A DNA stretch of 64,000 nucleotides, from the NCBI GenBank assembly GCA_964016885.1, contig OZ024752.1:21390001-21454000 (forward strand), in the 5' to 3' direction. Numbering within the stretch: the first letter of the stretch is position 1; each line of letters starts with the position of its first letter. A program made the position numbers and the translations under genes. The notes below the pieces were generated by a model. That model saw only the letters and a program-made list of their open reading frames with translations. It did not search any database and was not told where the DNA came from. This document shows positions 19,659 through 62,614 of this stretch, one piece after another. Source of the stretch: Eledone cirrhosa (taxonomy: Eukaryota).

Positions 19659-19690
19659 CTGATGAAGGACTAGTGTCTGAAATGTTAAAA
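19659..19690 (+). ncRNA. Degenerate hammerhead-like core
   Basis: CTGATGA-A-GGAC-TAGT-GTCT-GAAA-TGTTA; stem I not evident. Confidence 0.35.
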
Positions 19691-24585: not shown

Positions 24586-24903
24586 TTACAAATGTTTAAC
24601 CTGGTCTTCGGAATCAGGCATAGCAGCAGCAGTTAATTCATTTTTACAATCAGATTTGGCAACAAGAATGTTGTCAGCCTGACTGAGTTCGGTGTCAAGT
24701 GTTCTCTCTGCTGTAACAGTTGTGGCATTTGGTTCTTTTTTTTCTGTTGTTTCACAGTTATTTGCAGCCAGGCGCTGCTGTGCTCTGGATGTCTCTTGCA
24801 GATTATACTTGCGGAACTTGTAGAAGTCTTTTACAACACTTAAGCAACAAACTCCTCTCAACAACTCCACAACAACAATAAGATCTGGTTTACTGTAGTT
24901 AAC
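24586..24903 (-). CDS. THUMPD1: THUMPD1 last coding exon (105 aa + stop)
   Basis: Acceptor ctttttcttgcag. VNYSKPDLIVVVELLRGVCCLSVVKDFYKFRKYNLQE completes the THUMP domain in phase with ...NPLNK of the previous exon; intron 24904-51843. Confidence 0.9.
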   Translation of the reverse strand, partial: VNYSKPDLIVVVELLRGVCCLSVVKDFYKFRKYNLQETSRAQQRLAANNCETTEKKEPNATTVTAERTLDTELSQADNILVAKSDCKNELTAAAMPDSEDQVKHL

Positions 24904-26960: not shown

Positions 26961-27573
26961 TTGCAAACCAAGTTTTAACTCTTTTCCTACCATACTGCTT
27001 GAACAATCTCTTGTTCTATGTCACAAAGCTGTTTATTATAAAATGTTTATCTATATACTACTAAACCTCTGTGATTGTGTGCTTGTCTGTAATTTAATAC
27101 AGCCAAAACGGCGCATAACAGGAAAATACTTTGAAAGCAAGTTGCTCCCGAAATGGGAATACAAATGGAATAAAACAAGTTTTGTGTAAATCAGAGTATG
27201 GGTATCTTCATAAATGGAGAGAAGGAAAAATAGAAGAGAGAGAGCTGGTGGTGTTGTTGAATGAAATTATAACAGGTGACTTCAAAGAGTCGAATACTGC
27301 ATTACTATATCTAGCTAAAATGTGATGACTAACTATTAAGTCATATGTATTATATAACTTGTGCTAGGACAGGATGTGTGTAGCGAATATTTCCTGCTAA
27401 ATAAGAAGGGTTTATAAATTCATGTGTGTGTGTATATATATATAAGTGTGTGTGTCTGTGACCAGTGTATATAGGTCACAAACACCCACATCTCTCTGTC
27501 TCTCTCTCTCTCTATATATATATATATCACAGAAAAAAAAGAGAATCAGTGTTGCGACGAATAGAATTTATTG

Positions 27574-27657
27574 GACATATTACAATCGTTTCTCTGGCGA
27601 CCAGCTCGAGGCACGATCGAACCTGACTCTGAAAATCGCAAGGTCCTCAGATACGTC
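27574..27657 (-). ncRNA. Type I hammerhead ribozyme in the left arm (sense to THUMPD1 pre-mRNA)
   Basis: gacguau-CUGAGGA-cCUuGCGAUU..GGUCGCcAGa-GAAAC-GAUU-GUA-auauguc; 7-bp stem I; AAUAAA 1 nt downstream. Confidence 0.8.
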
Positions 27658-28175
27658 TTGATTCTACGAAGCAGATTTTCCTAATGTCCTTTTACATCGA
27701 TATACTTCGCTTGTCGGCTTAGATCCTGTTATTGTCATTCTAGGAGTGGTCAAGAACTGTACACGTCATCGGTATTTCTAGCCACTCATGGTTGTCCACT
27801 ATTTGGTTCTTTTCATTCTCCATCTGTCAATCAAATTTGTTTCTTAGGTTGGAATTACTAGTGTAGTAGGTAAGGGGTTGTATGCTTTAACTGCTGGCGG
27901 CCCTTCGACGTCTTCACTGTCTTTAGGCGCCCACTTCTACACCGATGGTGTACACACCCGCAAATGTATTGTATGCGACGATCACCGTAAATAATGTTTG
28001 GAGGGAATTTTTAAATCAAATTAGAAAAATATTTAGCATAACGTTTCAAGAAGACAGCCTCAGAATACCTTAAAACATATTTCAAAAGGAAAAAGAAAAC
28101 TCTGTACAAAGAACATTTTTAAATGAATGTTTGGAACAGCCTTTCAAAAAAAGTTATTTCGAAAGAATTTTATAA

Positions 28176-31100
28176 ATATACACATATCTACACTCACACA
28201 CTGTACTCAGGGAAGTGTGTACAGTTGATATACACACATCTACACTCACACACTGTACTCAGGGAAGTGTGTACAGTTGATATACACATATCTACACTCA
28301 CACACTGTACTCAGGGAAGTGTGTACAGTTGATATACACATAACTACACTCACACACTGTACTCAGGGCAGTGTGTACAGTTGATATACACATATCTACA
28401 CTCACACACTGTACTCAGGGCAGTGTGTACAGTTGATATACACATATCTACACTCACACACTGTACTCAGGGAAGTGTGTACAGTTGATATACACATATC
28501 TACACTCACACACTGTACTCAGGGAAGTGTGTACAGTTGATATACACATATCTACACTCACACACTGTACTCAGGGCAGTATGTACAGTTGATATATACA
28601 TATCTACACTCACACACTGTACTCAGGGCAGTGTGTATAGTTGATATACTCATATCTACACCCACACACTGTACTCAGGGCAGTATGTACAGTTGATATA
28701 CACATATCTACACTCACACACTGTACTCAGGGAAGTGTGTACAGTTGATATACACATATCTACACTCACACACTGTACTCAGGGAAGTGTGTATAGTTGA
28801 TATACACATATCTACACTCATACACTGTACTCAGGGAAGTGTGTACAGTTGATATACACACATCTACACTCACACACTGTACTCAGGGAAGTGTGTACAG
28901 TTGATATACACACATCTACACTCACACACTGTACTCAGGGAAGTGTGTACAGTTGATATACACATATCTACACTCACACACTGTACTCAGGGAAGTGTGT
29001 ACAGTTGATATACACATATCTACACTCACACACTGTACTCAGGGCAGTGTGTATAGTTGATATATACATATCTACACCCACACACTGTACTCAGGGAAGT
29101 GTGTACAGTTGATATACACATATCTACACTCACACACTGTACTCAGGGAAGAGTGTACAGTTGATATACACATATCTACACCCACACACTGTACTCAGGG
29201 AAGTGTGTACAGTTGATATACACATATCTACACTCACACACTGTACTCAGGGAAGTGTGTACAGTTGATATACACATATCTACACTCACACACTGTACTC
29301 AGGGAAGTGTGTACAGTTGATATACACATATCTACACTCACACACTGTACTCAGGGAAGTGTGTACAGTTGATATACACATATCTACACTCACACACTGT
29401 ACTCAGGGAAGTGTGTACAGTTGATATACACATATCTACACTCACACACTGTACTCAGGGAAGTGTGTATAGTTGATATATACATATCTACACCCACACA
29501 CTGTACTCAGGGCAGTATGTACAGTTGATATACACATATCTACACTCACACACTGTACTCAGGGAAGTGTGTACAGTTGATATACACATATCTACACTCA
29601 CACACTGTACTCAGGGAAGTGTGTACAGTTGATATACACACATCTACACTCACACACTGTACTCAGGGAAGTGTGTACAGTTGATATACACATATCTACA
29701 CTCACACACTGTACTCAGGGCAGTATGTACAGTTGATATACACATATCTACACTCACACACTGTACTCAGGGAAGTGTGTACAGTTGATATTCACATAAC
29801 TACACTCACACACTGTACTCAGGGAAGTGTGTACAGTTGATATACACATATCTACACTCACACACTGTACTCAGGGAAGTGTGTACAGTTGATATACACA
29901 TAACTACACTCACACACTGTACTCAGGGAAGTGAGTACAGTTGATATACACATATCTACACTCACACACTGTACTCAGGGAAGTGTGTACAGTTGATATA
30001 CACACATCTACACTCACACACTGTACTCAGGGAAGTGTGTACAGTTGATATACACATATCTACACTCACACACTGTACTCAGGGCAGTATGTACAGTTGA
30101 TATACACATATCTACACTCACACACTGTACTCAGGGAAGTGTGTACAGTTGATATATACATATCTACACTCACACACTGTACTCACGGAAGTGTGTACAG
30201 TTGATATACACATATCTACACTCACACACTGTACTCACGGAAGAGTGTACAGTTGATATACACATATCTACACTCACACACTGTACTCAGGGAAGTGTGT
30301 ACAGTTGATATACACATATCTACACTCACACACTGTACTCACGGAAGTGTGTACAGTTGATATACACATATCTACACTCACACACTGTACTCAGGGAAGT
30401 GTGTACAGTTGATATATACATATCTACACCCACACACTGTAATCAGGGAAGCGTGTACAGTTGATATACACATATCTACACCCACACACTGTACTCAGGG
30501 AAGTGTGTACAGTTGATATACACATATCTACACTCACACACTGTACTCAGGGCAGTATGTACAGTTGATATACACATATCTACACTCACACACTGTACTC
30601 AGGGAAGTGTGTACAGTTGATATACACATATCTACACTCACACACTGTACTCAGGGCAGTGTGTATAGTTGATATATACATATCTACACCCACACACTGT
30701 ACTCAGGGAAGTGTGTACAGTTGATATACACATATCTACACTCACACACTGTACTCAGGGAAGAGTGTACAGTTGATATACACATATCTACACCCACACA
30801 CTGTACTCAGGGAAGTGTGTACAGTTGATATACACATATCTACACTCACACACTGTACTCAGGGAAGTGTGTACAGTTGATATACACATATCTACACTCA
30901 CACACTGTACTCAGGGAAGTGTGTACAGTTGATATACACATATCTACACTCACACACTGTACTCAGGGAAGTGTGTACAGTTGATATACACATATCTACA
31001 CTCACACACTGTACTCAGGGAAGTGTGTACAGTTGATATACACATATCTACACTCACACACTGTACTCAGGGAAGTGTGTATAGTTGATATATACATATC

Positions 31101-34100
31101 TACACCCACACACTGTACTCAGGGCAGTATGTACAGTTGATATACACATATCTACACTCACACACTGTACTCAGGGAAGTGTGTACAGTTGATATACACA
31201 TATCTACACTCACACACTGTACTCAGGGAAGTGTGTACAGTTGATATACACACATCTACACTCACACACTGTACTCAGGGAAGTGTGTACAGTTGATATA
31301 CACATATCTACACTCACACACTGTACTCAGGGCAGTATGTACAGTTGATATACACATATCTACACTCACACACTGTACTCAGGGAAGTGTGTACAGTTGA
31401 TATTCACATAACTACACTCACACACTGTACTCAGGGAAGTGTGTACAGTTGATATACACATATCTACACTCACACACTGTACTCAGGGAAGTGTGTACAG
31501 TTGATATACACATAACTACACTCACACACTGTACTCAGGGAAGTGAGTACAGTTGATATACACATATCTACACTCACACACTGTACTCAGGGAAGTGTGT
31601 ACAGTTGATATACACACATCTACACTCACACACTGTACTCAGGGAAGTGTGTACAGTTGATATACACATATCTACACTCACACACTGTACTCAGGGCAGT
31701 ATGTACAGTTGATATACACATATCTACACTCACACACTGTACTCAGGGAAGTGTGTACAGTTGATATATACATATCTACACTCACACACTGTACTCACGG
31801 AAGTGTGTACAGTTGATATACACATATCTACACTCACACACTGTACTCACGGAAGAGTGTACAGTTGATATACACATATCTACACTCACACACTGTACTC
31901 AGGGAAGTGTGTACAGTTGATATACACATATCTACACTCACACACTGTACTCACGGAAGTGTGTACAGTTGATATACACATATCTACACTCACACACTGT
32001 ACTCAGGGAAGTGTGTACAGTTGATATATACATATCTACACCCACACACTGTAATCAGGGAAGCGTGTACAGTTGATATACACATATCTACACCCACACA
32101 CTGTACTCAGGGAAGTGTGTACAGTTGATATACACATATCTACACTCACACACTGTACTCAGGGCAGTATGTACAGTTGATATACACATATCTACACTCA
32201 CACACTGTACTCAGGGAAGTGTGTACAGTTGATATACACATATCTACACTCACACACTGTACTCAGGGCAGTGTGTATAGTTGATATATACATATCTACA
32301 CTCACACACTGTACTCAGGGAAGTGTGTACAGTTGATATACACATATCTACACTCACACACTGTACTCACGGAAGTGTGTACAGTTGATATACACATATC
32401 TCCACCCACACACTGTACTCAGGGAAGCGTGTACAGTTGATATACACATATCTACACCCACACACTGTACTCAGGGAAGTGTGTACAGTTGATATACACA
32501 CATCTACACTCACACACTGTACTCACGGAAGTGTGTACAGTTGATATACACATATCTACACTCACACACTGTACTCAGGGAAGCGTGTACAGTTGATATA
32601 CACATATCTACACTCACACACTGTACTCAGGGCAGTATGTACAGTTGATATACACATATCTACACTCACACACTGTACTCAGGGAAGTGTGTACAGTTGA
32701 TATATACATATCTACACTCACACACTGTACTCAGGGAAGTATGTACAGTTGATATACACATATCTACACTCATACACTGTACTCAGGGCTGTGTGTACAG
32801 TTGATATACACATATCTACACTCACACACTGTACTCAGGGCAGTATGTACAGATGATATACACATATCTACACTCACACACTGTACTCAGGGAAGTGTGT
32901 ACAGTTGATATACACATATCTACACCCACACACTGTACTCATGGAAGTGTGTACAGTTGATATACACATATCTACACTCACACACTGTACTCAGGGCAGT
33001 GTGTATAGTTGATATACACATATCTACACCCACACACTGTACTCAGGGAAGTGTGTACAGTTGATATACTCATATCTACACTCACACACTGTACTCAGGG
33101 AAGTGTGTATAGTTGATATACACATATCTACACTCACACACTGTACTCAGGGAAGTGTGTACAGTTGATATACTCATATCTACACTCACACACTGTACTC
33201 AGGGAAGTGTGTATAGTTGATATACACATATCTACACTCACACACTGTACTCAGGGAAGTGTGTACAGTTGATATATACATATCTACACCCACACACTGT
33301 ACTCATGGAAGTGTGTACAGTTGATATACACATATCTACACTCACACACTGTACTCAGGGAAGCGTGTACAGTTGATATACACATATCTACACTCACACA
33401 CTGTACTCAGGGAAGCGTGTACAGTTGATATACACATATCTACACTCACACACTGTACTCAGGGAAGCGTGTACAGTTGATATACACATATCTACACTCA
33501 CACACTGTACTCAGGGAAGTGTGTACAGTTGATATACACATATCTACACTCACACACTGTACTCAGGGAAGCGTGTACAGTTGATATACACATATCTACA
33601 CCCACACACTGTACTCAGGGAAGTGTGTACATTTGATATACACATATCTACACTCACACACTGTACCCAGGGAAGCGTGTACAGTTAATATACACATATC
33701 TACACCCACACACTGTACTCAGGGAAGTGTGTACAGTTGATATTCACATAACTACACTCACACACTGTACTCAGGGAAGTGTGTACAGTTGATATACACA
33801 TATCTACACTCACACACTACTCAGGGAAGTGTGTACAGTTGATATACACATAACTACACTCACACACTGTACTCAGGGAAGTGTGTACAGTTGATATACA
33901 CATATCTACACTCACACACAGTACTCACGGAAGTGTGTACAGTTGATATACACACATCTACACTCACACACTGTACTCAGGGCAGTGTGTACAGTTGATA
34001 TATACATATCTACACTCACACACTGTACTCAGGGCAGTATGTACAGTTGATATACACATATCTACACTCACACACTGTACTCAGGGAAGTGTGTACAGTT

Positions 34101-37100
34101 GATATACACATATCTACACTCACACACTGTACTCAGGGCAGTATGTACAGTTGATATACACATATCTACACTCACACACTGTACTCAGGGAAGTGTGTAC
34201 AGTTGATATACACATATCTACACTCACACACTGTACTCAGGGAAGTGTGTACAGTTGATATACACATATCTACACTCACACACTGTACTCAGGGCAGTGT
34301 GTACAGTTGATATACACATATCTACACTCACACACTGTACTCAGGGAAGTGTGTACAGTTGATATACACACATCTACACTCACACACTGTACTCAGGGCA
34401 GTGTGTACAGTTGATATATACATATCTACACTCACACACTGTACTCAGGGCAGTATGTACAGTTGATATACACATATCTACACTCACACACTGTACTCAG
34501 GGCAGTATGTACAGTTGATATACACATATCTACACTCACACACTGTACTCAGGGCAGTATGTACAGTTGATATACACACATCTACACTCACCCACTGTAC
34601 TCAGGGAAGCGTGTACAGTTGATATACACATATCTACACTCACACACTGTACTCAGGGAAGTGTGTACAGTTGATATACACATATCTACACTCACACACT
34701 GTACTCAGGGAAGTGTGTACAGTTGATATACACATATCTACACTCACACACTGTACTCAGGGAAGTGTGTACAGTTGATATACACATATCTACACTCACA
34801 CACTGTACTCAGGGAAATATGTACAGTTGATATACACATATCTACACTCACACACTGTACTCAGGGAAGCGTGTACAGTTAATATACACATATCTACACT
34901 CACACACTGTACTCAGGGAAGCGTGTACAGTTAATATACACATATCTACACTCACACACTGTACTCAGGGCAGTGTGTACAGTTGATATACACATATCTA
35001 CACTCACACACTGTACTCAGGGAAGAGTGTACAGTTGATATACACATATCTACACTCACACACTGTACTCAGGGAAGTGTGTACAGTTGATATACACATA
35101 TCTACACTCACACACTGTACTCAGGGAAGCGTGTACAGTTAATATACACATATCTACACTCACACACTGTACTCAGGGAAGCGTGTACAGTTAATATACA
35201 CATATCTACACTCACACACTGTACTCAGGGCAGTGTGTACAGTTGATATACACATATCTACACTCACACACTGTACTCAGGGAAGTGTGTACAGTTGATA
35301 TACACACATCTACACTCACACACTGTACTCAGGGCAGTGTGTACAGTTGATATATACATATCTACACTCACACACTGTACTCAGGGCAGTATGTACAGTT
35401 GATATACACATATCTACACTCACACACTGTACTCAGGGCAGTATGTACAGTTGATATACACATATCTACACTCACACACTGTACTCAGGGCAGTATGTAC
35501 AGTTGATATACACACATCTACACTCACCCACTGTACTCAGGGAAGCGTGTACAGTTGATATACACATATCTACACTCACACACTGTACTCAGGGAAGTGT
35601 GTACAGTTGATATACACATATCTACACTCACACACTGTACTCAGGGAAGTGTGTACAGTTGATATACACATATCTACACTCACACACTGTACTCAGGGAA
35701 ATATGTACAGTTGATATATACATATCTACACTCACACACTGTACTCAGGGAAGCGTGTACAGTTAATATACACATATCTACACTCACACACTGTACTCAG
35801 GGAAGCGTGTACAGTTAATATACACATATCTACACTCACACACTGTACTCAGGGCAGTGTGTACAGTTGATATACACATATCTACACTCACACACTGTAC
35901 TCAGGGAAGAGTGTACAGTTGATATACACATATCTACACTCACACACTGTACTCAGGGAAGTGTGTACAGTTGATATACACATATCTACACTCACACACT
36001 GTACTCAGGGAAGCGTGTACAGTTAATATACACATATCTACACTCACACACTGTACTCAGGGAAGCGTGTACAGTTAATATACACATATCTACACTCACA
36101 CACTGTACTCAGGGCAGTGTGTACAGTTGATATACACATATCTACACTCACACACTGTACTCAGGGAAGAGTGTACAGTTGATATACACATATCTACACT
36201 CACACACTGTACTCAGGGAAGTGTGTACAGTTAATATACACATATCTACACTCACACACTGTACTCAGGGAAGCGTGTACAGTTAATATACACATATCTA
36301 CATTCACACACTGTACTCAGGGAAGCGTGTACAGTTAATATACACATATCTACACTCACACACTGTACTCAGGGCAGTGTGTACAGTTGATATACACATA
36401 TCTACACTCACACACTGTACTCAGGGAAGAGTGTACAGTTGATATACACATATCTACACTCACACACTGTACTCAGGGAAGTGTGTACAGTTGATATACA
36501 CATATCTACACTCACACACTGTACTCAGGGAAGTGTGTATAGTTGATATACACATATCTACACTCACACACTGTACTCAGGGCAGTGTGTACAGTTGATA
36601 TACACATATCTACACTCACACACTGTACTCAGGGAAGTGTGTACAGTTGATATACACATATCTACACTCACACACTGTACTCAGGGAAGTGTGTATAGTT
36701 GATATACACATATCTACACTCACACACTGTACTCAGGGAAGTGTGTACAGTTGATATACACATATCTACACTCACACACTGTACTCAGGGAAGTGTGTAC
36801 AGTTGAAATACACATATCTACACTCACACACTGTACTCAGGGAAGTGTGTACAGTTGATATACACATATCTACACTCACACACTGTACTCAGGGCAGTAT
36901 GTACAGTTGATATATACATATCTACACTCACACACTGTACTCAGGGAAGTGTGTACAGTTGATATACACACATCTACACTCACACACTGTACTCAGGGAA
37001 GTATGTACAGTTGATATACACATATCTACACTCACACACTGTACTCAGGGAAGTATGTACAGTTGATATACACATATCTACACTCACACACTGTACTCAG

Positions 37101-40100
37101 GGAAGTGTGTACAGTTGATATACACATATCTACACTCACACACTGTACTCAGGGAAGTGTGTACAGTTGATATACACATATCTACACTCACACACTGTAC
37201 TCAGGGCTGTGTGTACAGTTGATATACACATATCTACACTCACACACTGTACTCAGGGAAGAGTGTACAGTTGATATACACATATCTACACTCACACACT
37301 GTACTCAGGGCAGTATGTACAGTTGATATACACATATCTACACTCACACACTGTACTCAGGGAAGTGTGTATAGTTGATATACACATATCTACACTCACA
37401 CACTGTACTCAGGGAAGTGTGTACAGTTGATATACACATATCTACACTCACACACTGTACTCAGGGAAGTGTGTACAGTTGATATACACATATCTACACT
37501 CACACACTGTACTCAGGGAAGTGTGTACAGTTGATATACACATATCTACACTCACACACTGTACTCAGGGCAGTATGTACAGTTGATATATACATATCTA
37601 CACTCACACACTGTACTCAGGGAAGTGTGTACAGTTGATATACACACATCTACACTCACACACTGTACTCAGGGAAGTATGTACAGTTGATATACACACA
37701 TCTACACTCACACACTGTACTCAGGGAAGTATGTACAGTTGATATACACATATCTACACTCACACACTGTACTCAGGGAAGAGTGTACAGTTGATATACA
37801 CATATCTACACTCACACACTGTACTCAGGGCAGTATGTACAGTTGATATACACATATCTACACTCACACACTGTACTCAGGGAAGTGTGTATAGTTGATA
37901 TACACATATCTACACTCACACACTGTACTCAGGGAAGCGTGTACAGTTGATATACACATATCTACACTCACACACTGTACTCAGGGAAGCGTGTACAGTT
38001 GATATACACATATCTACACTCACACACTGTACTCAGGGAAGTGTGTACAGTTGATATACACATATCTACACTCACACACTGTACTCAGGGAAGCGTGTAC
38101 AGTTGATATACACATATCTACACCCACACACTGTACTCAGGGAAGTGTGTACATTTGATATACACATATCTACACTCACACACTGTACTCAGGGAAACGT
38201 GTACAGTTGATATACACATATCTACACCCACACACTGTACTCAGGGAAGTGTGTACATTTGATATACACATATCTACACTCACACACTGTACTCAGGGAA
38301 GCGTGTACAGTTGATATACACATATCTACACCCACACACTGTACTCAGGGAAGTGTGTACATTTGATATACACATATCTACACTCACACACTGTACTCAG
38401 GGAAGTGTGTACAGTTGATATACACATATCTACACCCACACACTGTACTCAGGGAAGTGTGTACAGTTGATATTCACATAACTACACTCACACACTGTAC
38501 TCAGGGAAGTGTGTACAGTTGATATACACATATCTACACTCACACACTGTACTCAGGGAAGTGTGTACAGTTGATATACACATAACTACACTCACACACT
38601 GTACTCAGGGAAGTGTGTACAGTTGATATACACATATCTACACTCACACACTGTACTCACGGAAGTGTGTACAGTTGATATACACATATCTACACTCACA
38701 CACTGTACTCAGGGAAGCGTGTACAGTTGATATACACATATCTACACTCACACACTGTACTCAGGGAAATATGTACAGTTGATATATACATATCTACACT
38801 CACACACTGTACTCAGGGAAGTGTGTGCAGTTGATATACACATATCTACACTCACACACTGTACTCAGGGAAGTGTGTACAGTTGATATACTCATATCTA
38901 CACTCACACACTGTACTCAGGGAAGTGTGTACAGTTGATATATACATATCTACACTCACACACTGTACTCAGGGAAGTGTGTGCAGTTGATATACACATA
39001 TCTACACTCACACACTGTACTCAGGGAAGTGTGTACAGTTGATATACACACATCTACACTCACACACTGTACTCAGGGAAGTGTGTGCAGTTGATATACA
39101 CATATCTACACTCACACACTGTACTCAGGGAAGTGTGTACAGTTGATATACACATATCTACACTCACACACTGTACTCAGGGAAGTGTGTACAGTTGATA
39201 TACACACATCTACACTCACACACTGTACTCAGGGAAGTGTGTGCAGTTGATATACACATATCTACACTCACACACTGTACTCAGGGAAGTGTGTACAGTT
39301 GATATACACATATCTACACTCACACACTGTACTCAGGGAAGTGTGTACAGTTGATATACACACATCTACACTCACACACTGTACTCAGGGAAGCGTGTAC
39401 AGTTGATATACACACATCTACACTCACACACTGTACTCAGGGAAGCGTGTACAGTTGATATACACATATCTACACTCACACACTGTACTCAGGGAAGTGT
39501 GTACAGTTGATATACACATATCTACACTCACACACTGTACTCAGGGAAGCGTGTACAGTTGATATACACACATCTACACTCACACACTGTACTCAGGGAA
39601 GCGTGTACAGTTGATATACACATATCTACACTCACACACTGTACTCAGGGAAGTGTGTACAGTTGATATACACATATCTACACCCACACACTGTACTCAG
39701 GGAAGTATGTACAGTTGATATACACATATCTACACTCACACACTGTACTCAGGGCAGTGTGTACAGTTGATATACACACATCTACACTCACACACTGTAC
39801 TCAGGGAAGTGTGTACAGTTGATATACACATATCTACACTCACACACTGTACTCAGGGAAGTGTGTACAGTTGATATACACACATCTACACTCACACACT
39901 GTACTCAGGGCAGTGTGTCAGTTGATATACACATATCTACACTCACACACTGTACTCAGGGAAGTGTGTACAGTTGATATACACATATCTACACTCACAC
40001 ACTGTACTCAGGGAAGTATGTACAGTTGATATACACATATCTACACTCACACACTTTACTCAGGGCAGTGTGTCAGTTGATATACACATATCTACACTCA

Positions 40101-40923
40101 CACACTGTACTCAGGGAAGTATGTACAGTTGATATACACATATCTACACTCACACACTGTACTCAGGGAAGTATGTACAGTTGATATACACATAACTACA
40201 CTCACACACTGTACTCAGGGAAGCGTGTACAGTTGATATACACATATCTACACTCACACACTGTACTCAGGGAAGTGTGTGCAGTTGATATACACATATC
40301 TACACTCACACACTGTACTCAGGGAAGTGTGTACAGTTGATATACACATATCTACACTCACACACTGTACTCAGGGAAGTGTGTACAGTTGATATACTCA
40401 TATCTACACTCACACACTGTACTCAGGGAAGTGTGTACAGTTGATATACACATATCTACACTCACACACTGTACTCAGGGAAGTGTGTACAGTTGATATA
40501 CACATATCTACACTCACACACTGTACTCAGGGAAGCGTGTACAGTTGATATACACATATCTACACTCACACACTGTACTCAGGGAAGTATGTACAGTTGA
40601 TATACACATATCTACACTCACACACTGTACTCAGGGAAGTATGTGCAGTTGATATACACATATCTACACTCACACACTGTACTCAGGGAAGTGTGTACAG
40701 TTGATATACACATATCTACACTCACACACTGTACTCAGGGAAGTGTGTACAGTTGATATACACATATCTACACTCACACACTGTACTCAGGGCAGTGTGT
40801 ACAGTTGATATACACATATCTACACTCACACACTGTACTCAGGGAAGTATGTACAGTTGATATACACATATCTACACTCACACACTGTACTCAGGGCTGT
40901 GTGTACAGTTGATATACACATAT
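28176..40923. repeat. 52-bp tandem satellite, block 1 (~245 units)
   Basis: Consensus GATATACACATATCTACACTCACACACTGTACTCAGGGAAGTGTGTACAGTT; period 52 checked (28331 to 28383). Confidence 0.99.
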
Positions 40924-43900
40924 ATCCATATATACCATGCGACCCTCAGTTCCTACCTCCCCCCCCTCTCTATGCACTTCTTTAAGGCTTACTACCCTGT
41001 CTTTAACCTAATTCATTCAATCTGAAAATATTGAAGAGATAAGACACTTTCCCATTCTTCTCTGCTAAAATGTACCACTAGAGCTGATTCAAATTTTCCC
41101 AGCCAGCCATCCATCTAATCTACGAAGGTATTTTAGCCTACATATTGTCGTTAATATTATGATGTTCCCTGCTGTATTAGCGTTAAATTTTCCCTGCTGT
41201 ATTAGCGATAAATTTTCGAGGGTTTCTCTTAGTAGCTTTTTTCATGACGTTATTATTGTTAATTTTACTGATGTAGTATTAACTTGGATATTTACCATGC
41301 GACCCTCAGTTCCTACCTCACAATTTCCCTCTCCCCCACCCCCACACACCACCATAGTCTATTCGACCAATCAAACCTAGCATGCCATTTCCACTGCTGC
41401 TGCTGCTACTACCTGCCTAACTAACTCTCTCCTCCTCTGGCGCATCCCAACACACCCTGCCATTACCCCACCACCACTGTCCTTCTAGCCCTCAATTTTC
41501 CCACCGTTATGGATGGATGAGCTGGGAATACACGAGCAACTCTGAATCAATAGATGAAATATGAATCTGCGAGCTACCAAGCACCCACGTGAAGCGCCAA
41601 CCCAGAGACCCTCCCCTACGAGTGTCGACAAATGCCCAAAACTCCGAGTTGGTACCATCAATGTAGGCTCAATGAAAGGAAGAGCAGGAGAAATCGTAGA
41701 AATGCTAGAGCGAAAGGAAGTTGATGTATGCTGTGTGCAAGAGACTAGATGGAGAGGAGGGTCTGCTAGAGTCCTTGTAGGAAAAAGCCAGTGCTACAAA
41801 TTTTTCTGGGTGGGAAATGACGATGGGATGGGTGGTGTAGGTATACTATTAGCTGACAAGTGGGTAGATAAAGTAATCTCAGTGTACAGGGTAAATGCAA
41901 GAATCATTAAACTCAGACTAGTCCTGAATAAGACAATTACCACAATAATATCAGCTTACGCACCCCAATCGGGGCTGCCAGACGAACTTAAGGATAGGTT
42001 TTACGAGTCCCTAATACACACTACTGCTCTAACAGACGACAAGGACTTCCTAATCATTGCAGGAGATTTTAACGGACACGTAGGTAAACACTGCGACGGC
42101 TTCAATAGAGTACATGGAGGCCATGGAGTTGGCACAAGGAATGAGGAAGGATTCAGACTTCTAGAATTCTGCGACGCCAATGACATGTCGATATGTAACA
42201 CAAACTTTAAAAAACCCGACAACCACCTGATCACCTATAGATCAGGGGAGCACTCTAGTCAGTTAGATTTTATCCTCATCAGAGGACGTGACAGATGGAC
42301 GGTCGTAAACACAAAAGCCTTCCCTAGTGAGGAATGTACATCCCAACATAGCTTAGTTGTCAGCGACCTCACGGTCAGAACTAGACGAGCCCTGAAACAG
42401 AGGCCAACCTGGAGAAGAAAGATCTGGAAGCTGAAAGTCCCCTCAACCAGTAACAGATTTAAAGATATTTTACTCAACGCCTACGACAGTAAAGAAGAAC
42501 AGATAGAGACATTTAACGTAGAAGAGAACTGGGAGTTCCTAAAAAATAACTTACTAGAGGCGACGGATGAGGTTTGTGGCTGGAGTAAGACCTCAAGCAG
42601 GAGGAGAGTGACTTGGTGGTGGAACAATAAGGTAGATGAAGCAGTCAAGGCCAAGAGACAGGCATGGAAAGAATGGAAGAACGGGGGGAGCAGGGTACAT
42701 TACATAGAGACCAAGAGGGAAGCTAGGCGACAAGTATACTTAGCTAGGAGGGAAGCAGAGGATAGAAAATTCAAGCATGTTTTACAACGTGAGGACCAGA
42801 AACAGGAGGTATTCAAGATTGCGAGGCAGTGTGTCAGAGATAGTTGTGATGTCATTGGAGAGAAGTGTATCCGGAATGATAAAGGTGAGCTTGCCCTCAC
42901 AAGTGCTGAGAAGAAAGATGCATGGAAGAGTCATTATGATAGATTACTAAATGAGGAGAATGCATGGGAAGAAGAGACCCTACCCCACGTAGACCCTATA
43001 GAGGGACCAGCAGTACAAGTCAGCGGCAGCGTAGTAAGTAAGGCAATCAGAGATATGAAGATAGGGAAGGCAACCGGTCCATCGGGTATAGCTGCCGAGA
43101 TGCTGAAGGCATCTGGGTCTGTAGGTCACACTATAACCACACGTATCGTTAACCAGGTAATACTAGAGGGGGCCATACCAAAAGATTGGTGCAGTAGCAT
43201 CATTGTCAACTGCTACAAAGGTAAAGGCGATGCACTAGATAGAGGAAACTATAGAGGTATAAAGTTGATGGACCAGGTCATGAAAGTAACAGAAAGAGTT
43301 ATAGCACAGCTGATTAGGGACCGGGTGAATATAGACGAGATGCAATTTGGGTTTGTACCAGGGAAAGGCACCACTGATGCGCTCTTCCTTGTGAGGCAAT
43401 TACAGGAAAAGTACCTAGCTAAAAGTAAGCCACTCTACTTGGCATTTGTCGACCTTGAGAAAGCCTTTGACAGAGTTCCACGTGCAGTAATCTGGTGGGC
43501 TCTTAGAAAACTAGGAGTAGATGAATGGCTTGTGAAAGCGGTACAAGCCATGTATAGGGGAGCAGTCAGCAAAGTTAGGATTGGCAATGAGTATAGCGAG
43601 GAATTTAGCGTACAGGTTGGGGTCCACCAGGGCTCTGTTCTTAGCCCTCTCCTGTTCATCATAGTCCTGCAGGCAATAACGGAGGAGTTTAAGACCGGAT
43701 GCCCATGGGAACTCCTGTATGCTGATGACCTCGCACTCATAGCTGAATCTATGGTAGAACTAGAGAATAAATTCCAAACCTGGAAGCAGGGACTAGAGAG
43801 AAAGGGCCTCAAAGTCAACATGACAAAGACTAAGGTCCTTATAAGTAGACGAGAAAACAGAACCCAGATCCCCTCAGGGAAATGGCCTTGCTCAGTATGT

Positions 43901-44983
43901 AGGAAAGGTGTAGGTAGGAACTCCATTCTTTGCCCCAAATGCAAACAATGGGTACACAAGAGATGTAGCGGGATCTCAGGAAGCTTAATTAAGAATGTAG
44001 GATTCACATGCAGCAGCTGTGCTGAAACAGCAAGCAAACAGCCACAGGAAACAAGTACCACCAATCTCTGGGAGGGCCCTGTAGAAACAGTAGACAGCTT
44101 CTGCTACCTAGGTGACCGAATTAGCAACGGAGGTGGGTGCTCAGAAAGTACAATAACTAGGGTAAGAACGGGATGGAAGAAGTTTAGGGAACTACTACCA
44201 CTGCTAGCTGCAAAAGGCTTCTCCCTCAGAATGAAAGGCAGACTGTATGATGCGTGTATCCGAACAGCGATGTTGCATGGTAGTGAGACCTGGGCGCTGA
44301 AGGTGGAAGACCTACGTAGATTAGAGAGAAACGAAGCCTGCATGCTCCGATGGATGAGTAACAGTAATATACGTGAACGACAAAGCATAAATGAATTGAG
44401 AGAGAGACTGAGCATAAGAGGAATCAAATGCTGCGTGCAGGAGAGGCGGTTACGCTGGTATGGACATGTGATACGTATGAAGGATGACAGCTGCATAAAA
44501 AGGTGCAGAGCACTAGAAGTTGATGGAAACCGCGGAGTGGGGAGACCCAAGATGACTTGGGATGAGGTGATAAAAGCCGACCTTACCCAACTACACCTCT
44601 CAAAGTCAATGACACATGACCGTGACTTCTGGCGTCACGCAGTAATACAGGGTACCCGACCTCCCATGGGTACATGCTGAAGCATATAAACAATATGACC
44701 CCCCCCCCCACCGCAAGGTGGTCGTGGAGGTGCCACGGCAAAAAAGCACCCAGCCCACACTGTAAAGTGGACGTGTAGGCGCCACGAAAAAGCACCCAGC
44801 ACTCACTGTAAATGAGGTTGGTGTTAGGAAGGGCATCCAGCTGTAGAAATCAAGCCAGATCAGTTCCTGTATGAGCAAGGCATGGTCAGCCGACCAGACA
44901 CTGCCCACAACAGGACAACCCGTCTAACCCATGCTAGCGTGGAAGAACGGACGTAAAACGGTGATGATGATGATGATGATGAT
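40924..44983 (+). mobile_element. RTE-clade LINE family B, apparently full length, inserted in the satellite
   Basis: 5'UTR, single ORF, 3'UTR and (GAT)n tail. Array reads ..CACATAT| before and |ATATCTACAC after. Confidence 0.97.
41561..44680 (+). CDS. Intact RTE polyprotein (APE endonuclease, RT, PHD-type finger), 1039 aa
   Basis: ATG start, no stops. GTINVG, VQETRW, GDFNGH, SQH; DLEKAFD, QGSVLSP, YADD; CSVC..CPKC..H..C..CSSC. Confidence 0.95.
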   Translation: MNLRATKHPREAPTQRPSPTSVDKCPKLRVGTINVGSMKGRAGEIVEMLERKEVDVCCVQETRWRGGSARVLVGKSQCYKFFWVGNDDGMGGVGILLADKWVDKVISVYRVNARIIKLRLVLNKTITTIISAYAPQSGLPDELKDRFYESLIHTTALTDDKDFLIIAGDFNGHVGKHCDGFNRVHGGHGVGTRNEEGFRLLEFCDANDMSICNTNFKKPDNHLITYRSGEHSSQLDFILIRGRDRWTVVNTKAFPSEECTSQHSLVVSDLTVRTRRALKQRPTWRRKIWKLKVPSTSNRFKDILLNAYDSKEEQIETFNVEENWEFLKNNLLEATDEVCGWSKTSSRRRVTWWWNNKVDEAVKAKRQAWKEWKNGGSRVHYIETKREARRQVYLARREAEDRKFKHVLQREDQKQEVFKIARQCVRDSCDVIGEKCIRNDKGELALTSAEKKDAWKSHYDRLLNEENAWEEETLPHVDPIEGPAVQVSGSVVSKAIRDMKIGKATGPSGIAAEMLKASGSVGHTITTRIVNQVILEGAIPKDWCSSIIVNCYKGKGDALDRGNYRGIKLMDQVMKVTERVIAQLIRDRVNIDEMQFGFVPGKGTTDALFLVRQLQEKYLAKSKPLYLAFVDLEKAFDRVPRAVIWWALRKLGVDEWLVKAVQAMYRGAVSKVRIGNEYSEEFSVQVGVHQGSVLSPLLFIIVLQAITEEFKTGCPWELLYADDLALIAESMVELENKFQTWKQGLERKGLKVNMTKTKVLISRRENRTQIPSGKWPCSVCRKGVGRNSILCPKCKQWVHKRCSGISGSLIKNVGFTCSSCAETASKQPQETSTTNLWEGPVETVDSFCYLGDRISNGGGCSESTITRVRTGWKKFRELLPLLAAKGFSLRMKGRLYDACIRTAMLHGSETWALKVEDLRRLERNEACMLRWMSNSNIRERQSINELRERLSIRGIKCCVQERRLRWYGHVIRMKDDSCIKRCRALEVDGNRGVGRPKMTWDEVIKADLTQLHLSKSMTHDRDFWRHAVIQGTRPPMGTC

Positions 44984-47900
44984 ATCTACACTCACACACT
45001 GTACTCAGGGCAGTATGTACAGATGATATACACATATCTACACTCACACACTGTACTCAGGGCAGTATGTACAGTTGATATACACATATCTACACTCACA
45101 CACTGTACTCAGGGAAGCGTGTACAGTTGATATACACATATCTACACCCACACACTGTACTCATGGAAGTGTGTACAGGTGATATACACATATCTACACT
45201 CACACACTGTACTCAGGGAAGTGTGTATAGTTGATATACACATATCTACACTCACACACTGTACTCACGGAAGTGTGTACAGTTGATATACACATATCTA
45301 CACTCACACACTGTACTCAGGGAAGTGTGTACAGTTGATATACACACATCTACACTCACACACTGTACTCAGGGAAGTGTGTACAGTTGATATACACATA
45401 TCTACACTCACACACTGTACTCAGGGAAGAGTGTACAGTTGATATACACATATCTACACTCACACACTGTACTCAGGGCAGTATGTACAGTTGATATACA
45501 CATATCTACACTCACACACTGTACTCAGGGAAGTGTGTACAGTTGATATACACATATCTACACTCACACACTGTACTCAGGGAAGCGTGTACAGTTGATA
45601 TACACATATCTACACTCACACACTGTACTCAGGGAAGCGTGTACAGTTGATATACACATATCTACACCCACACACTGTACTCAGGGAAGTGTGTACATTT
45701 GATATACACATATCTACACTCACACACTGTACTCAGGGAAGCGTGTACAGTTAATATACACATATCTACACTCACACACTGTACTCAGGGCAGTGTGTAC
45801 AGTTGATATACACATATCTACACTCACACACTGTACTCAGGGAAGTGTGTACAGTTGATATACACACATCTACACTCACACACTGTACTCAGGGCAGTGT
45901 GTACAGTTGATATATACATATCTACACTCACACACTGTACTCAGGGAAGTGTGTACAGTTGATATACACATATCTACACTCACACACTGTACTCAGGGAA
46001 GCGTGTACAGTTGATATACACATATCTACACTCACAGACTGTACTCAGGGAAATATGTACAGTTGATATACACATATCTACACTCACACACTGTACTCAG
46101 GGAAGCGTGTACAGTTGATATACACATATCTACACCCACACACTGTACTCAGGGAAGTGTGTACAGTTGATATATACATATCTACACTCACACACTGTAC
46201 TCAGGGAAGTGTGTACAGTTGATATACACATATCTACACTCACACACTGTACTCAGGGCAGTATGTACAGTTGATATATACATATCTACACTCACACACT
46301 GTACTCAGGGAAGTGTGTACAGTTGATATATACATATCTACACTCACACACTGTACTCAGGGAAGTGTGTACAGTTGATATACACATATCTACACTCACA
46401 CACTGTACTCAGGGAAGTGTGTACAGTTGATATACACATATCTACACCCACACACTGTACTCAGGGAAGTGTGTACAGTTGATATACACATATCTACACT
46501 CACACACTGTACTCAGGGCAGTATGTACAGTTGATATATACATATCTACACTCACACACTGTACTCAGGGAAGTGTGTACAGTTGATATATACATATCTA
46601 CACTCACACACTGTACTCAGGGAAGTGTGTACAGTTGATATACACATATCTACACTCACACACTGTACTCAGGGCAGTATGTACAGTTGATATATACATA
46701 TCTACACTCACACACTGTACTCAGGGAAGTGTGTACAGTTGATATACACACATCTACACTCACACACTGTACTCAGGGAAGTGTGTACAGTTGATATACA
46801 CATATCTACACTCACACACTGTACTCAGGGCAGTGTGTACAGTTGATATACACATATCTACACTCACACACTGTACTCAGGGAAGCGTGTACAGTTGATA
46901 TACACACATCTACACTCACACACTGTACTCAGGGCAGTGTGTCAGTTGATATACACATATCTACACTCACACACTGTACTCAGGGAAGTGTGTACAGTTG
47001 ATATACACATATCTACACTCACACACTGTACTCAGGGAAGTGTGTACAGTTGATATATACATATCTACACTCACACACTGTACTCAGGGCAGTGTGTATA
47101 GTTGATATACTCATATCTACACTCACACACTGTACTCAGGGAAGTGTGTACAGTTGATATACACATATCTACACTCACACACTGTACTCAGGGCAGTGTG
47201 TACAGTTGATATACTCATATCTACACTCACACACTGTACTCAGGGAAGCGTGTATAGTTGATATACTCATATCTACACTCACACACTGTACTCAGGGAAG
47301 CGTGTATAGTTGATATACACATATCTACACCCACACACTGTACTCAGGGAAGTGTGTACAGTTGATATACACACATCTACACTCACACACTGTACTCAGG
47401 GCAGTGTGTACAGTTGATATACACATATCTACACTCACACACTGTACTCAGGGAAGTGTGTACAGTTGATATACACATATCTACACTCACACACTGTACT
47501 CAGGGCTGTGTGTACAGTTGATATACACATATCTACACTCACACACTGTACTCAGGGAAGTATGTACAGTTGATATACACATATCTACACTCACACACTG
47601 TACTCAGGGAAATATGTACAGTTGATATACACATATCTACACTCACACACTGTACTCAGGGCAGTATGTACAGTTGATATACACATATCTACACTCACAC
47701 ACTGTACTCAGGGAAGTGTGTACAGTTGATATACACATATCTACACTCACACACTGTACTCAGGGAAGTGTGTACAGTTGATATACACATATCTACACTC
47801 ACACACTGTACTCAGGGAAGTGTGTACAGTTGATATACACATATCTACACTCACACACTGTACTCAGGGCAGTATGTACAGTTGATATACACATATCTAC

Positions 47901-48905
47901 ACTCACACACTGTACTCAGGGCAGTATGTACAGTTGATATACACATATCTACACTCACACACTGTACTCAGGGAAGTGTGTATAGTTGATATACACATAT
48001 CTACACTCACACACTGTACTCAGGGAAGTGTGTACAGTTGATATACACATATCTACACTCACACACTGTACTCAGGGAAGTGTGTACAGTTGATATACAC
48101 ATATCTACACTCACACACTGTACTCAGGGAAGTGTGTACAGTTGATATACACACATCTACACTCACACACTGTACTCAGGGAAGTGTGTACATTTGATAT
48201 ACACATATCTACACTCACACACTGTACTCAGGGAAGCGTGTACAGTTGATATACACATATCTACACTCACACACTGTACTCAGGGAAGCGTGTACAGTTG
48301 ATATATACATATCTACACTCACACACTGTACTCAGGGAAGCGTGTACAGTTGATATACACATATCTACACTCACACACTGTACTCAGGGAAGCGTGTACA
48401 GTTGATATACACATATCTACACTCACACACTGTACTCAGGGAAGCGTGTACAGTTGATATATACATATCTACACTCACACACTGTACTCAGGGAAGTGTG
48501 TACAGTTGATATACACATATCTACACCCACACACTGTACTCAGGGAAGTGTGTACAGTTGATATACACACATCTACACTCACACACTGTACTCAGAGAAG
48601 TGTGTACAGTTGATATACACATATCTACACTCACACACTGTACTCAGGGAAGTGTGTACAGTTGATATACACATATCTACACTCACACACTGTACTCAGG
48701 GAAGTGTGTACAGTTGATATACACATATCTACACTCACACACTGTACTCAGGGAAGTGTGTACAGTTGATATACACATATCTACACTCACACACTGTACT
48801 CAGGGAAGTGTGTATAGTTGATATACACATATCTACACTCACACACTGTACTCAGGGAAGTGTGTACAGTTGATATACACATATCTACACTCACACACTG
48901 TACTC
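44982..48905. repeat. 52-bp tandem satellite, block 2 (~75 units), followed by ~1.8 inverted units to 48996
   Basis: Same consensus resumes in register after the LINE tail; polarity flips at 48905. Confidence 0.99.
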
Positions 48906-49516
48906 TTCCCTGAGTACAGTGTGTGAGTGTAGATATGTGTATATCAACTGTACACACTTCCCTGAGTACAGTGTGTGAGTGTAGATATGTGTATATTTAT
49001 AAAATATGCTTTCGAAATAACTTTTTTTGAAAGGCTGTTCCAAACATTCATTTAAAAATGTTCTTTGTACAGAGTTTTCTTTTTCCTTTTGAAATATGTT
49101 TTAAGGTATTCTGAGGCTGTCTTCTTGAAACGTTATGCTAAATATTTTTCTAATTTGATTTAAAAATTCCCTCCAAACATTATTTACGGTGATCGTCGCA
49201 TACAATACATTTGCGGGTGTGTACACCATCGGTGTAGAAGTGGGCGCCTAAAGACAGTGAAGACGTCGAAGGGCCGCCAGCAGTTAAAGCATACAACCCC
49301 TTACCTACTACAGTAGTAATTCCAACCTAAGAAACAAATTTGATTGACAGGTGGAGAATGAAAAGAACCAAATAGTGGACAACCATGAGTGGCTAGAAAT
49401 ACCGATGACGTGTACAGTTCTTGACCACTCCTAGAATGACAATAACAGGATCTAAGCCGATAAGCGAAGTATATCGATGTAAAAGGACATTAGGAAAATC
49501 TGCTTCGTAGAATCAA

Positions 49517-49606
49517 GACGTATCTGAGGACCTTGCGATTTTCAGAGTCAGGTTCGATCATCACATTGATCGTGCCTCGAGCTGGTCGCCAGAGAAACGA
49601 TAAATT
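49517..49606 (+). ncRNA. Inactivated hammerhead in the right arm
   Basis: Same CTGAGGA..GAAAC core, but a 15-nt deletion (TTGTAATATGTCCAA) removes the cleavage triplet, the stem I 3' strand and AATAAA. Confidence 0.7.
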
Positions 49607-49723
49607 CTTTTCATCGCAACACTGATTCTCTTTTTTTCTGTGATATCATACTCTGCTCTACGAGAGCATCGAGTGCTCATACGGCCTACCACATACGGAT
49701 GCTTTAAGCATCCAATATCAATT

Positions 49724-49759
<36 letters not shown>

Positions 49760-51843: not shown

Positions 51844-52320
51844 CTTATTTAAGGGATTCATTTCTTCAATAATCTGGCAAAGAATCCGAATAACATCATC
51901 ACGGGAAACTCTGGATGACATGCGAGCTTTAAAAGAAATGCCGTAGGTCTGCATAGTTCCAAAAGGTGTGGAGAAAAATGGTTCCAACAAATCTGTGACT
52001 ACCTTTGTTATGTCTGCCAAATCAATACGACAAATGACGCTTACTGGAAGAACCCGAAGACTATAACGGGTCTTTTGGACTTGACTTTGGTAGATATCAG
52101 CAAGGATGTGATGAATTAATCCACATGGATCTTCTAGAGTAGTCTTGATGAAGAGACAATTTTTGGTGCCGCTGTCCACCTGCTGGAATCTCCGTTCAGT
52201 AGGTTTTTCCTCTTTCAAGGCCTTTACTTCTCGTTCAAGTTCATCTTCAATCTCACCAGCTGATTCTTCTGATTCTTCTTTGTTATCTTTAGATTCCAAA
52301 TTCTTTGATGTCACCTCTGT
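51844..52320 (-). CDS. THUMPD1: THUMPD1 coding exon 2 (159 codons)
   Basis: Acceptor ttttcccgacag. Reads EIEDELEREVKALKEE..RRFQQVDSGTKNCLFIKT..KTRYSLRVLPV..FKARMSSRVSRDDVI..MNPLNK, then donor GTTGGT. Phase 0 at both ends. Confidence 0.9.
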
Positions 52321-62600: not shown

Positions 62601-62614
62601 GAATTTCAGAAGGA

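What the first reader, a model, noticed from the sequence alone, without database searches (positions are those of the whole stretch)
27524..49646. 22-kb ribozyme-capped palindromic cassette: hammerhead-bearing inverted arms around a 52-bp satellite, inside a THUMPD1 intron
Seen: two ~740-bp inverted arms, each with an outward-facing hammerhead core and inner 52-bp units. One side has ~320 units (~16.7 kb); the other has ~1.8 inverted units. No transposase and no clear TSD. Known: minimal type I hammerheads followed by AATAAA mark Penelope-like pseudo-LTRs, which often occur with an inverted partial copy. Inference: a non-autonomous PLE or retrozyme-like element captured a 52-mer and seeded a macrosatellite, which would link a ribozyme retroelement to satellite birth. 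The arms differ by indels, which argues against a simple read fold-back artefact.
Basis: partly seen in the sequence, partly recalled or inferred. Interest (0 to 1): 0.8.

Follow-up and report, generated by a model that had tools for sequence, protein, structure and literature searches.

The report
Penelope-type insertion carrying giant internal satellite
Inside a gene of an octopus-like animal sits a mirror-image insertion with the marks of a Penelope-type jumping gene, including one motif predicted to be a self-cutting RNA, and a 52-letter repeat that is linked to the same element in a relative has reached about 320 copies on one side, likely mostly after the insertion, which suggests that such elements can plant new satellite DNA inside genes.

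Summary
The structure is real but needs two corrections. The array (245 + 75.5 units of 52 bp) is split by a 4,058-bp LINE with an intact 1,040-codon frame. Only the left arm keeps a whole type I hammerhead; a 15-bp deletion removes the cleavage site, half of helix I and the AATAAA from the right arm. Rfam does not detect the motif; a descriptor does (0 of 2,000 shuffles). It lies in a THUMPD1 intron of an octopod. Reads from a relative show a very abundant family whose depth rises about 130-fold towards the ribozyme end, two alternative 3' ends (the right 'flank' holds a ~65-80-bp tail), and contigs that join the 52-mer to the arm. This is the known head-to-head, one-tailed layout of Penelope-like insertions. 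The 52-mer is likely internal cargo of the family, not a local capture, and likely expanded mostly as DNA afterwards. No RT/endonuclease frame, no covariation proof, no reads across the inner junction. Earlier notes of this scan report the same two-arm layout at other loci of this genome, one with satellite. New variant of a known kind.

The parts
24586..24903 (-). THUMPD1 coding exon downstream of the host intron (ends in a stop)
   Evidence: 68% identical to residues 276-363 of O. vulgaris P0003; AG acceptor
27500..27527 (.). (CT)n(AT)n microsatellite flanking the left arm; likely target site
   Evidence: sequence; family copies in organism A also end in (AT)n at the equivalent point (table 7)
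27528..28175 (-). Left arm, non-coding 3' part of the element without tail
   Evidence: no Pfam match in six frames
27567..27657 (-). Type I hammerhead of the left arm: helix I 27657-27651 with 27580-27574 (7 of 7 pairs), core box 27650-27644, long helix II, GAAA 27592-27589, self-complementary helix III 8-mer 27589-27582, predicted cut after 27581, AATAAA 27572-27567. Same strand as the THUMPD1 pre-mRNA
   Evidence: not found by Rfam
28176..40923 (.). 52-bp array, first block, 245.2 units; includes a run of 33 identical units at a lag of 31 units
40924..44981 (+). Later LINE insertion (endonuclease, RT, PHD finger; (GAT)n tail; RTE-like by recall), frame 41558-44680; unit phase kept across it
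44982..48905 (.). 52-bp array, second block, 75.5 units; shares 16 of its 19 variants with the first block
48897..48920 (.). Head-to-head junction: 9-bp inverted stem with a 6-nt spacer, inside the unit's own short inverted repeat
   Evidence: sequence; not spanned by any read seen
48906..48996 (+). 1.75 inverted 52-bp units, both of consensus type
48997..49642 (+). Right arm; broken hammerhead (helix I 5' strand 49517-49523, core box 49524-49530, GAAA 49594-49597, 15-bp deletion after 49601)
   Evidence: the deleted letters are present in family reads (table 7)
49643..49711 (+). One-sided 3' tail, part of the element family; its true end may lie up to about 49723, before (AC)n
   Evidence: depth stays high to 49709 and contigs join 49558 to 49648 (tables 2 and 5c); the tool skipped 49712-49765
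51844..52305 (-). THUMPD1 coding exon upstream of the host intron (part searched)
   Evidence: 88% identical to residues 122-275 of P0003; THUMP domain

Best explanation
This is likely one insertion made by a Penelope-type reverse transcriptase, with two head-to-head arms whose shared 52-bp unit is linked to the arm in a relative, and whose left run of units likely grew to about 320 copies mostly by DNA-level duplication after insertion. Inferred steps: (1) the donor RNA read 52-bp units, about 530 nt of non-coding sequence, a dimer-type hammerhead, AATAAA and a short tail; (2) the enzyme cut an AT-rich microsatellite and copied the RNA from both DNA ends, starting at two fixed points, one giving the tail (right) and one not (left); (3) both copies stopped inside the 52-bp run and were joined head to head within the unit's own hairpin; (4) the left run, which probably already held several variant units, expanded by block duplication and shuffling; (5) a LINE jumped into the array; (6) each arm lost a different small piece, leaving one whole ribozyme motif. 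Shown directly: the anatomy, the intron position, the LINE, the family's abundance, its two ends and the unit-arm link in a relative.
For: Hammerhead topology in the left arm: 7 of 7 helix I pairs, 8 of the first 10 helix II pairs, both core boxes, helix III 8-mer that pairs with itself at 8 of 8 positions; 0 of 2,000 dinucleotide shuffles of the arm give helix I >= 7 with helix II >= 6 of 8, 7 of 2,000 give helix I >= 5. In three runs of one sample of organism A, summed depth on the ribozyme end is 130-140 times that on the inner arm and rises stepwise outwards, as 5' truncation would give. Two ends: 255 raw reads of X6 and 26-29 contigs per run leave at 49646 into (AT)n, while depth at 49661 in X6 is 892 against 919 at 49631. 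8 of the 12 joints listed for the left end are strand switches at 27602-27685, i.e. other, much shorter head-to-head copies. 2 of the 24 listed contig pieces bridge unit and arm by 31 or more letters on each side (48965-49154 and 48944-49099, 9-11% other letters). PMC8557442 (passages) describes an inverted 5'-truncated copy, a tail at one end only and microsatellite targets; PMC11167929 (passages) ties the tail to two RT start sites; PMC4209133 (parts 1-2 of 4) describes palindromic helix III and pairs of hammerheads on opposite strands. DNA-level growth: identical runs of 33, 9 and 8 units at lags of 31, 18 and 17; 8 singleton changes in 16,380 bases; 20 of 54 pairs of common variants show all four combinations.
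Against: No RT or GIY-YIG frame in the arm: 0 Pfam matches in six frames, 0 phmmer hits for the one frame searched; the autonomous partner was not found. Rfam gives no hammerhead. The descriptor was written after I saw the motif by eye, and my first, tighter pattern missed it. The base of helix II is a C-A mismatch, not the conserved G-C, and a family variant at 27595 (13% of X1 depth, 390 of 1,309 X6 reads) breaks a helix II pair in my register. No two-sided compensatory change was seen, and only 40 of 96 and 40 of 258 variant rows were shown. The tail is about twice the 30-40 bp of the literature. Units differ by 4.0% pairwise while the arms differ by about 1%, and unit similarity does not fall with distance: simple growth from two or three seed units does not explain this. 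Contig depth is not copy number (the tool says so; the same sequence gave 2-3-fold different depths), the strand-switch joints rest on 3-5 reads or one contig each, and the bridging contigs come from one sample.
Confidence: 0.6

Rival explanations
1. Same Penelope-type insertion, but most of the array arrived with it: the donor RNA held a long, already varied array, or the RT slipped back in register on the repeats, so that one arm received hundreds of units in one event.
For: Unit diversity (4.0% pairwise) exceeds arm divergence (about 1%); few singletons; no distance decay of similarity. In organism A the unit-to-inner-arm depth ratio is 162-178 in three runs, close to the 161 units per arm here, so long arrays may be the rule for the family. 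Changes that read A-to-G on the element's sense strand outnumber the reverse 107 to 6 by occurrence.
Against: Kilobase block duplications and a LINE inside show that the array has a DNA-level history. The A-to-G excess is only 4 against 1 distinct variants. The depth ratio can equally come from free-standing arrays. The steep truncation gradient says the enzyme rarely copies more than about 150 nt, which makes a 16.7-kb copy unusual.
Confidence: 0.22
2. The 52-mer is an independent satellite. A Penelope-type end fragment once landed in or beside it, and read-through transcripts carried satellite along.
Against: The unit joins the arm at the same point in both arms here and in diverged copies of organism A. 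320 raw reads of X6 continue from the unit at 48946 into other sequence, which may be a single-unit state of the element (number of loci unknown).
Confidence: 0.1
3. Non-autonomous foldback DNA transposon (Tetris- or Galileo-like) whose long terminal inverted repeats hold internal 52-bp repeats.
For: Long, 99%-identical inverted arms with inner tandem repeats and no coding frame look like Tetris (PMC4079207, passages). A formal ATAT lies on both sides. This was my first guess.
Against: No 8-10-bp TSD; ends are asymmetric in the family (tail on one side); depth falls about 130-fold within the supposed TIR; a hammerhead with AATAAA sits at the end.
Confidence: 0.05
4. The palindrome is an assembly or library fold-back artefact, or a one-off local inversion.
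For: The inner junction is a near-perfect hairpin and no read across it was seen; no genome or reads of this individual were available.
Against: The arms differ by 7 substitutions and 4 indels, and the family holds both of the larger missing pieces; one arm difference (27562) is a common family variant; both flanks belong to one intron between consecutive exons; the right arm has a family-typical tail that a fold-back of the left arm could not create.
Confidence: 0.03

Closest known systems
[quoted passage not shown] 2021, PMC8557442; passages seen)
   Same: Inverted 5'-truncated copy joined head to head, tail at one end only, microsatellite target, hammerhead near the end; some Chlamys families are lengthened by tandem repeats.
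   Different: No RT or GIY-YIG frame in what was inserted; tail 65-80 bp rather than 30-40; one arm holds a 16.7-kb array.
Type I / minimal hammerheads of PLE pseudo-LTRs (Cervera and de la Pena 2014, PMC4209133; parts 1-2 of 4 read)
   Same: Type I strand order, short palindromic helix III suited to dimers, pairs on opposite strands, mostly solo copies from truncated elements.
   Different: Helix II encloses 51-63 nt; no G10.1-C11.1 pair; the two motifs are 22 kb apart instead of 100-700 bp, and one is broken.
Animal non-LTR retrozymes (PMC7229834, passages; bioRxiv 10.64898/2026.07.22.740005, part 1 of 5)
   Same: Non-coding, type I hammerhead, proposed to be moved by PLEs.
   Different: In retrozymes every 150-450-bp monomer carries the ribozyme; here the 52-bp unit has none and there is one motif per arm.
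Tetris foldback element and its TIR-220 satellite (PMC4079207; passages)
   Same: Internal tandem repeats of inverted arms act as seeds of long arrays.
   Different: Tetris is a DNA transposon with 8-10-bp TSDs and symmetric ends; this one shows retroelement marks.
Penelope-related satellites (review PMC12692304, one passage; catfish HviSat02-2707, PMC11955569, passages)
   Same: Satellites related to Penelope elements are on record.
   Different: In the passages seen the monomer itself is Penelope-related (2.7 kb in the catfish); an internal 52-bp unit expanded inside one arm of an intact two-arm insertion was not described there.

Membership tests
Penelope-like element (EN+) | ORF with telomerase-like RT and GIY-YIG endonuclease | tested here: not met
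   6-14 stops in each of six frames of the arm; no Pfam match; no phmmer hit for one frame. Applies to this copy only; what lies upstream of the units in full-length members is unknown. Hence 'Penelope-type', not 'is a PLE'.
Penelope-like element (EN+) | Hammerhead motif at the 3' end / pseudo-LTR | tested here: met
   Left arm; right arm broken by deletion
Penelope-like element (EN+) | Inverted 5'-truncated copy joined at the 5' end | tested here: met
   short versions in organism A (weak support)
Penelope-like element (EN+) | Tail at one end only | tested here: met
   longer than the published 30-40 bp
Penelope-like element (EN+) | Strong 5' truncation across the family | tested here: met
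   about 130-fold depth gradient; depth is only a rough measure
Penelope-like element (EN+) | Direct partial-tandem pLTR | tested here: not met
   arm matches only its inverted partner in the window; optional in truncated copies
Type I hammerhead ribozyme | Core boxes, NUH site and three helices in type I order | tested here: met
   (core consensus recalled, layout checked against PMC4209133)
Type I hammerhead ribozyme | G10.1-C11.1 pair at the base of helix II | tested here: not met
   C-A mismatch at 27643/27593
Type I hammerhead ribozyme | Match to an Rfam hammerhead model | tested here: not met
   Rfam at gathering score also missed the four other descriptor hits of the window, so this negative is weak
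Type I hammerhead ribozyme | Covariation in the helices | tested here: inconclusive
   one variant keeps the dimer helix paired (27587), one adds a helix I pair (27573), one breaks a helix II pair (27595); tables truncated
Type I hammerhead ribozyme | Self-cleavage | not testable with these tools
   needs an in vitro assay
Non-LTR retrozyme | Hammerhead in each tandem monomer of 150-450 bp | tested here: not met
   descriptor finds no motif in the array; unit is 52 bp
Non-LTR retrozyme | Linear and circular monomer RNAs | not testable with these tools
   no RNA run was listed
Foldback DNA transposon (Tetris-like) | Long TIRs with internal tandem repeats | tested here: met
Foldback DNA transposon (Tetris-like) | 8-10-bp TSD and symmetric ends | tested here: not met
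   flanks; one-sided tail

The most novel reading that the evidence does not exclude
A non-coding, ribozyme-ended Penelope-type family is a satellite courier: its RNA carries a long ribozyme-free 52-nt array, and the telomerase-related RT writes hundreds of units into one arm in a single insertion (by plain copying or by slipping back in register), so that new macrosatellite loci, even inside genes, are born by retrotransposition.
Probability: 0.22. Interest if true: 0.72.

Novelty: new variant of a known kind. Interest (0 to 1): 0.42.

Why it matters
How dispersed satellite arrays reach new places in gene-rich DNA is an open question; seeds carried by DNA transposons, Helitrons and LTR elements are documented, and Penelope links are recorded only loosely in the papers seen. 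Here both ends of the carrier, the seed units and a young array are all preserved, so one genome-wide count can tell whether arrays are copied through RNA or grow in place. The locus also puts a whole hammerhead motif and an AATAAA on the sense strand of the THUMPD1 pre-mRNA, before the exon that completes the THUMP domain, and gives that RNA two 99%-complementary arms; any effect on the gene is untested. The insertion layout itself is ordinary for Penelope-type elements, which fill 6.83% of the O. vulgaris assembly (supplement of PMC13282606).

Tried and rejected
Rfam on the whole window and on both arms: no hammerhead. First hammerhead pattern with helix II up to 40 nt: missed the motif; a second candidate near 49112 has no helix II and was dropped by eye. 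The window's own genome is not held, so copy number and co-occurrence in this assembly could not be counted. No RNA holder was listed; this is no evidence on expression. Coding origin of the arm: tblastx against the window, best E 1.9; Pfam, six frames, none; phmmer of one sense frame against 1.84 billion proteins, none; the other five frames were not searched that way. Two motif scans of metagenome contigs (ribozyme end, 52-mer): 0 matches each. Look-ups of earlier findings by sequence: nothing relevant. Two short motifs were not found in the one supplementary file held for each of PMC13282606 and PMC8557442; the sequence libraries of those papers were not among the files seen, so the family may already be in them. 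RNA-editing signature in units and arms: 4 against 1 distinct variants, 3 of 4 arm transitions; inconclusive. Empty site in organism A: not visible, the microsatellite stretches were skipped by the tool. Foldback DNA transposon, my first reading, was dropped. Six literature searches listed no paper on this arrangement in cephalopods; the library lacks most subscription papers.
Full report
Observation. The two arms are real. Aligned from 27528-28270 and 48906-49643 they share 716 columns and differ by 7 substitutions and 4 internal indels of 1, 15, 12 and 2 bp. The 15-bp piece is present only on the left, the 12-bp piece only on the right. The arm matches nothing else in the window. Tandem Repeats Finder gives 245.2 units of 52 bp at 28176-40923 and 75.5 at 44982-48905, and the right arm holds 1.75 inverted units. 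The unit phase is kept across it. The host intron runs from 51843 to 24904 on the - strand between exons that match residues 122-275 (88%) and 276-363 (68%) of an Octopus vulgaris THUMP-domain protein; the second-best match is from Argonauta, so the animal is an octopod.

The hammerhead. Rfam finds no hammerhead in the window at gathering score, nor in either arm at E up to 10, and my first pattern missed it. By eye, and then with a wider descriptor written afterwards, the left arm has a full type I motif on the - strand: helix I with 7 of 7 pairs, the first core box at 27650-27644, a helix II that encloses 51 nt with 8 of its first 10 positions paired, GAAA, a two-pair helix III, a predicted cut after 27581, and AATAAA at 27572-27567. 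The eight letters of helix III pair with themselves at all 8 positions (two G-U), as a dimer-type ribozyme needs (PMC4209133, parts 1-2 of 4 read). Of 2,000 dinucleotide shuffles of the arm, 7 gave a hit with helix I of 5 or more pairs, 1 with 7 or more, and 0 with helix II also paired. The same descriptor finds four other motifs in the window (7929+, 8482+, 16323-, 56368-), none reported by Rfam, so the Rfam blank is weak. The right arm is not hit: its 15-bp deletion removes the cleavage triplet, the 3' strand of helix I and AATAAA. Against activity: the base of helix II is a C-A mismatch where the paper reports a conserved G-C, and the unconstrained fold (-28.0 kcal/mol) beats the ribozyme fold (-20.7). 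Covariation was not shown: among the 40 of 96 variant rows displayed for the left end none falls in the core boxes, the cleavage triplet or helix I; 27587 turns two G-U pairs of the dimer helix into A-U, 27573 adds a helix I pair, and 27595 breaks a helix II pair.

The family elsewhere. No genome is held for the window. Five runs of two organisms hold part of the arm, none more than a third of its sampled words. Laid on the right arm, three contig sets from one sample of organism A give summed depths of about 110,000-150,000 on the 52-mer, 250-1,400 on the inner arm, rising to about 100,000 over the last 145 bp, against 2-15 on flank at 50004-50100. The ribozyme end is 130-140 times deeper than the inner arm, and the unit 162-178 times. 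These are orders of magnitude only: the tool warns that the figure is no copy number, and the same sequence gave 2-3-fold higher values. At 49646, 255 raw reads of X6 and 26-29 contigs per run leave into (AT)n, like the left end here, while X6 depth is 919 at 49631 and 892 at 49661 and contigs of X2 and X3 join 49558 to 49648. I infer two alternative 3' ends, without and with a tail of about 65-80 bp; the tool skipped 49712-49765, so the exact end is open. The family carries both pieces that the two arms lost. Two of the 24 listed contig pieces bridge unit and arm by 31 or more letters on each side, with 9-11% other letters, so unit and arm co-occur in older, different copies. Eight of the 12 joints listed for the left end are strand switches at 27602-27685, each on 3-5 reads or one contig: weak signs of much shorter head-to-head copies. 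Organism B holds the last 69 letters of the ribozyme end with 2 differences. Organism A lacks this window's own letters at several arm sites (for example 49225 in all three runs) although one flank piece of 136 letters is identical; whether it is another species or lacks this insertion I cannot tell. No joint at 48905/48906 was among the 15 of 55 shown.

What it is. The layout matches the published one for Penelope-like insertions: an inverted 5'-truncated copy joined at the 5' end, a tail at one end only, and microsatellite targets (PMC8557442, passages). In vitro, a PLE enzyme cuts AT-rich DNA, extends both strands and starts reverse transcription at two sites whose spacing is the tail (PMC11167929, passages). 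I infer that both DNA ends were extended on the family RNA, that both copies stopped inside the 52-bp run, and that they were joined within the unit's own short inverted repeat, leaving a 9-bp stem with a 6-nt spacer. The inserted part is non-coding: 6-14 stops per frame, no Pfam match, no phmmer hit for the one frame searched. It is therefore Penelope-type in how it works, but not shown to be a PLE or to be non-autonomous. It is not a retrozyme, since the unit has no ribozyme (definitions from PMC7229834, passages, and the 2026 preprint, part 1 of 5). The foldback reading fails on the TSD, the asymmetric ends and the gradient (PMC4079207, passages).

How the array grew. There are 31 variant types in 319 units read, 16 shared across the LINE, and only 8 singletons in 16,380 bases; identical runs of 33, 9 and 8 units recur at lags of 31, 18 and 17; 20 of 54 pairs of common variants show all four combinations. 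This fits recent block duplication and shuffling in DNA, with the LINE arriving in an existing array. But units differ by 4.0% pairwise while the arms differ by about 1% (roughly 1.3 million years at the rate used in PMC13282606, part 1 of 3 read, if the arms started identical and were not converted), and unit similarity does not decline with distance (1.8-2.2 differences at all lags). The variant pool is thus older than the insertion or was imported later. How many units came in with the RNA is the open point, and it separates the best explanation from the novel case.

Novelty. The insertion layout and the ribozyme are known. Satellites from Penelope elements are named in a 2025 review (one passage) and in a catfish study (passages); another review has no mention of Penelope in its main text (PMC9659126, term count and passages). 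Six searches listed no description of a ribozyme-free internal unit grown to 16.7 kb inside one arm of an intact two-arm insertion; sequence libraries in supplements were not visible. Earlier notes of this scan report many two-arm hammerhead insertions in this genome, one with satellite and one minisatellite grown from a decayed PLE; I read them after reaching the Penelope-type reading and did not check them. Verdict: new variant of a known kind, interest 0.42.

Noticed in passing
window 40924-44981 (+): Apparently intact LINE (1,040-codon frame, (GAT)n tail) inside the array; a 27-bp stretch near its 5' end is repeated (40933 and 41293). About 75% identical to another long copy at 1163-4204.
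   Followed up: partly
window 7929 (+), 8482 (+), 16323 (-), 56368 (-); a weaker one at 19659 (+): Other type I hammerhead-like motifs, not reported by Rfam; probably ends of other Penelope-type elements.
   Followed up: no
window 5502-6347 (-), 9202-9819 (-), 57030-58998 (+), 62538-63583 (+): Broken frames that look like Penelope RT or GIY-YIG pieces by eye; Pfam gave only a weak RT match for 58255-58998.
   Followed up: partly
window 49752-50003: Another very high-copy repeat in organism A directly beyond the tail and the (AC)n(AT)n run.
   Followed up: no
window 48946 (run X6): 320 raw reads leave the 52-mer on its 5' side into other sequence; may show a single-unit form of the element or just one locus.
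   Followed up: no
window 27567-27657 (-) and 48997-49642: The whole hammerhead motif and AATAAA lie on the sense strand of the THUMPD1 pre-mRNA; the right arm could pair with the left arm, leaving the 15 nt around the cleavage site unpaired.
   Followed up: no
window 26341-26734 (-): Acidic frame that resembles the start of a piggyBac-like transposase (recalled likeness, not tested).
   Followed up: no
window 13735-13792 (+): tRNA-like sequence just above Rfam's gathering score; likely a SINE head.
   Followed up: no
window 49965-50100: A contig of organism A is identical over 136 letters of flank, yet that sample lacks this window's arm variant.
   Followed up: partly
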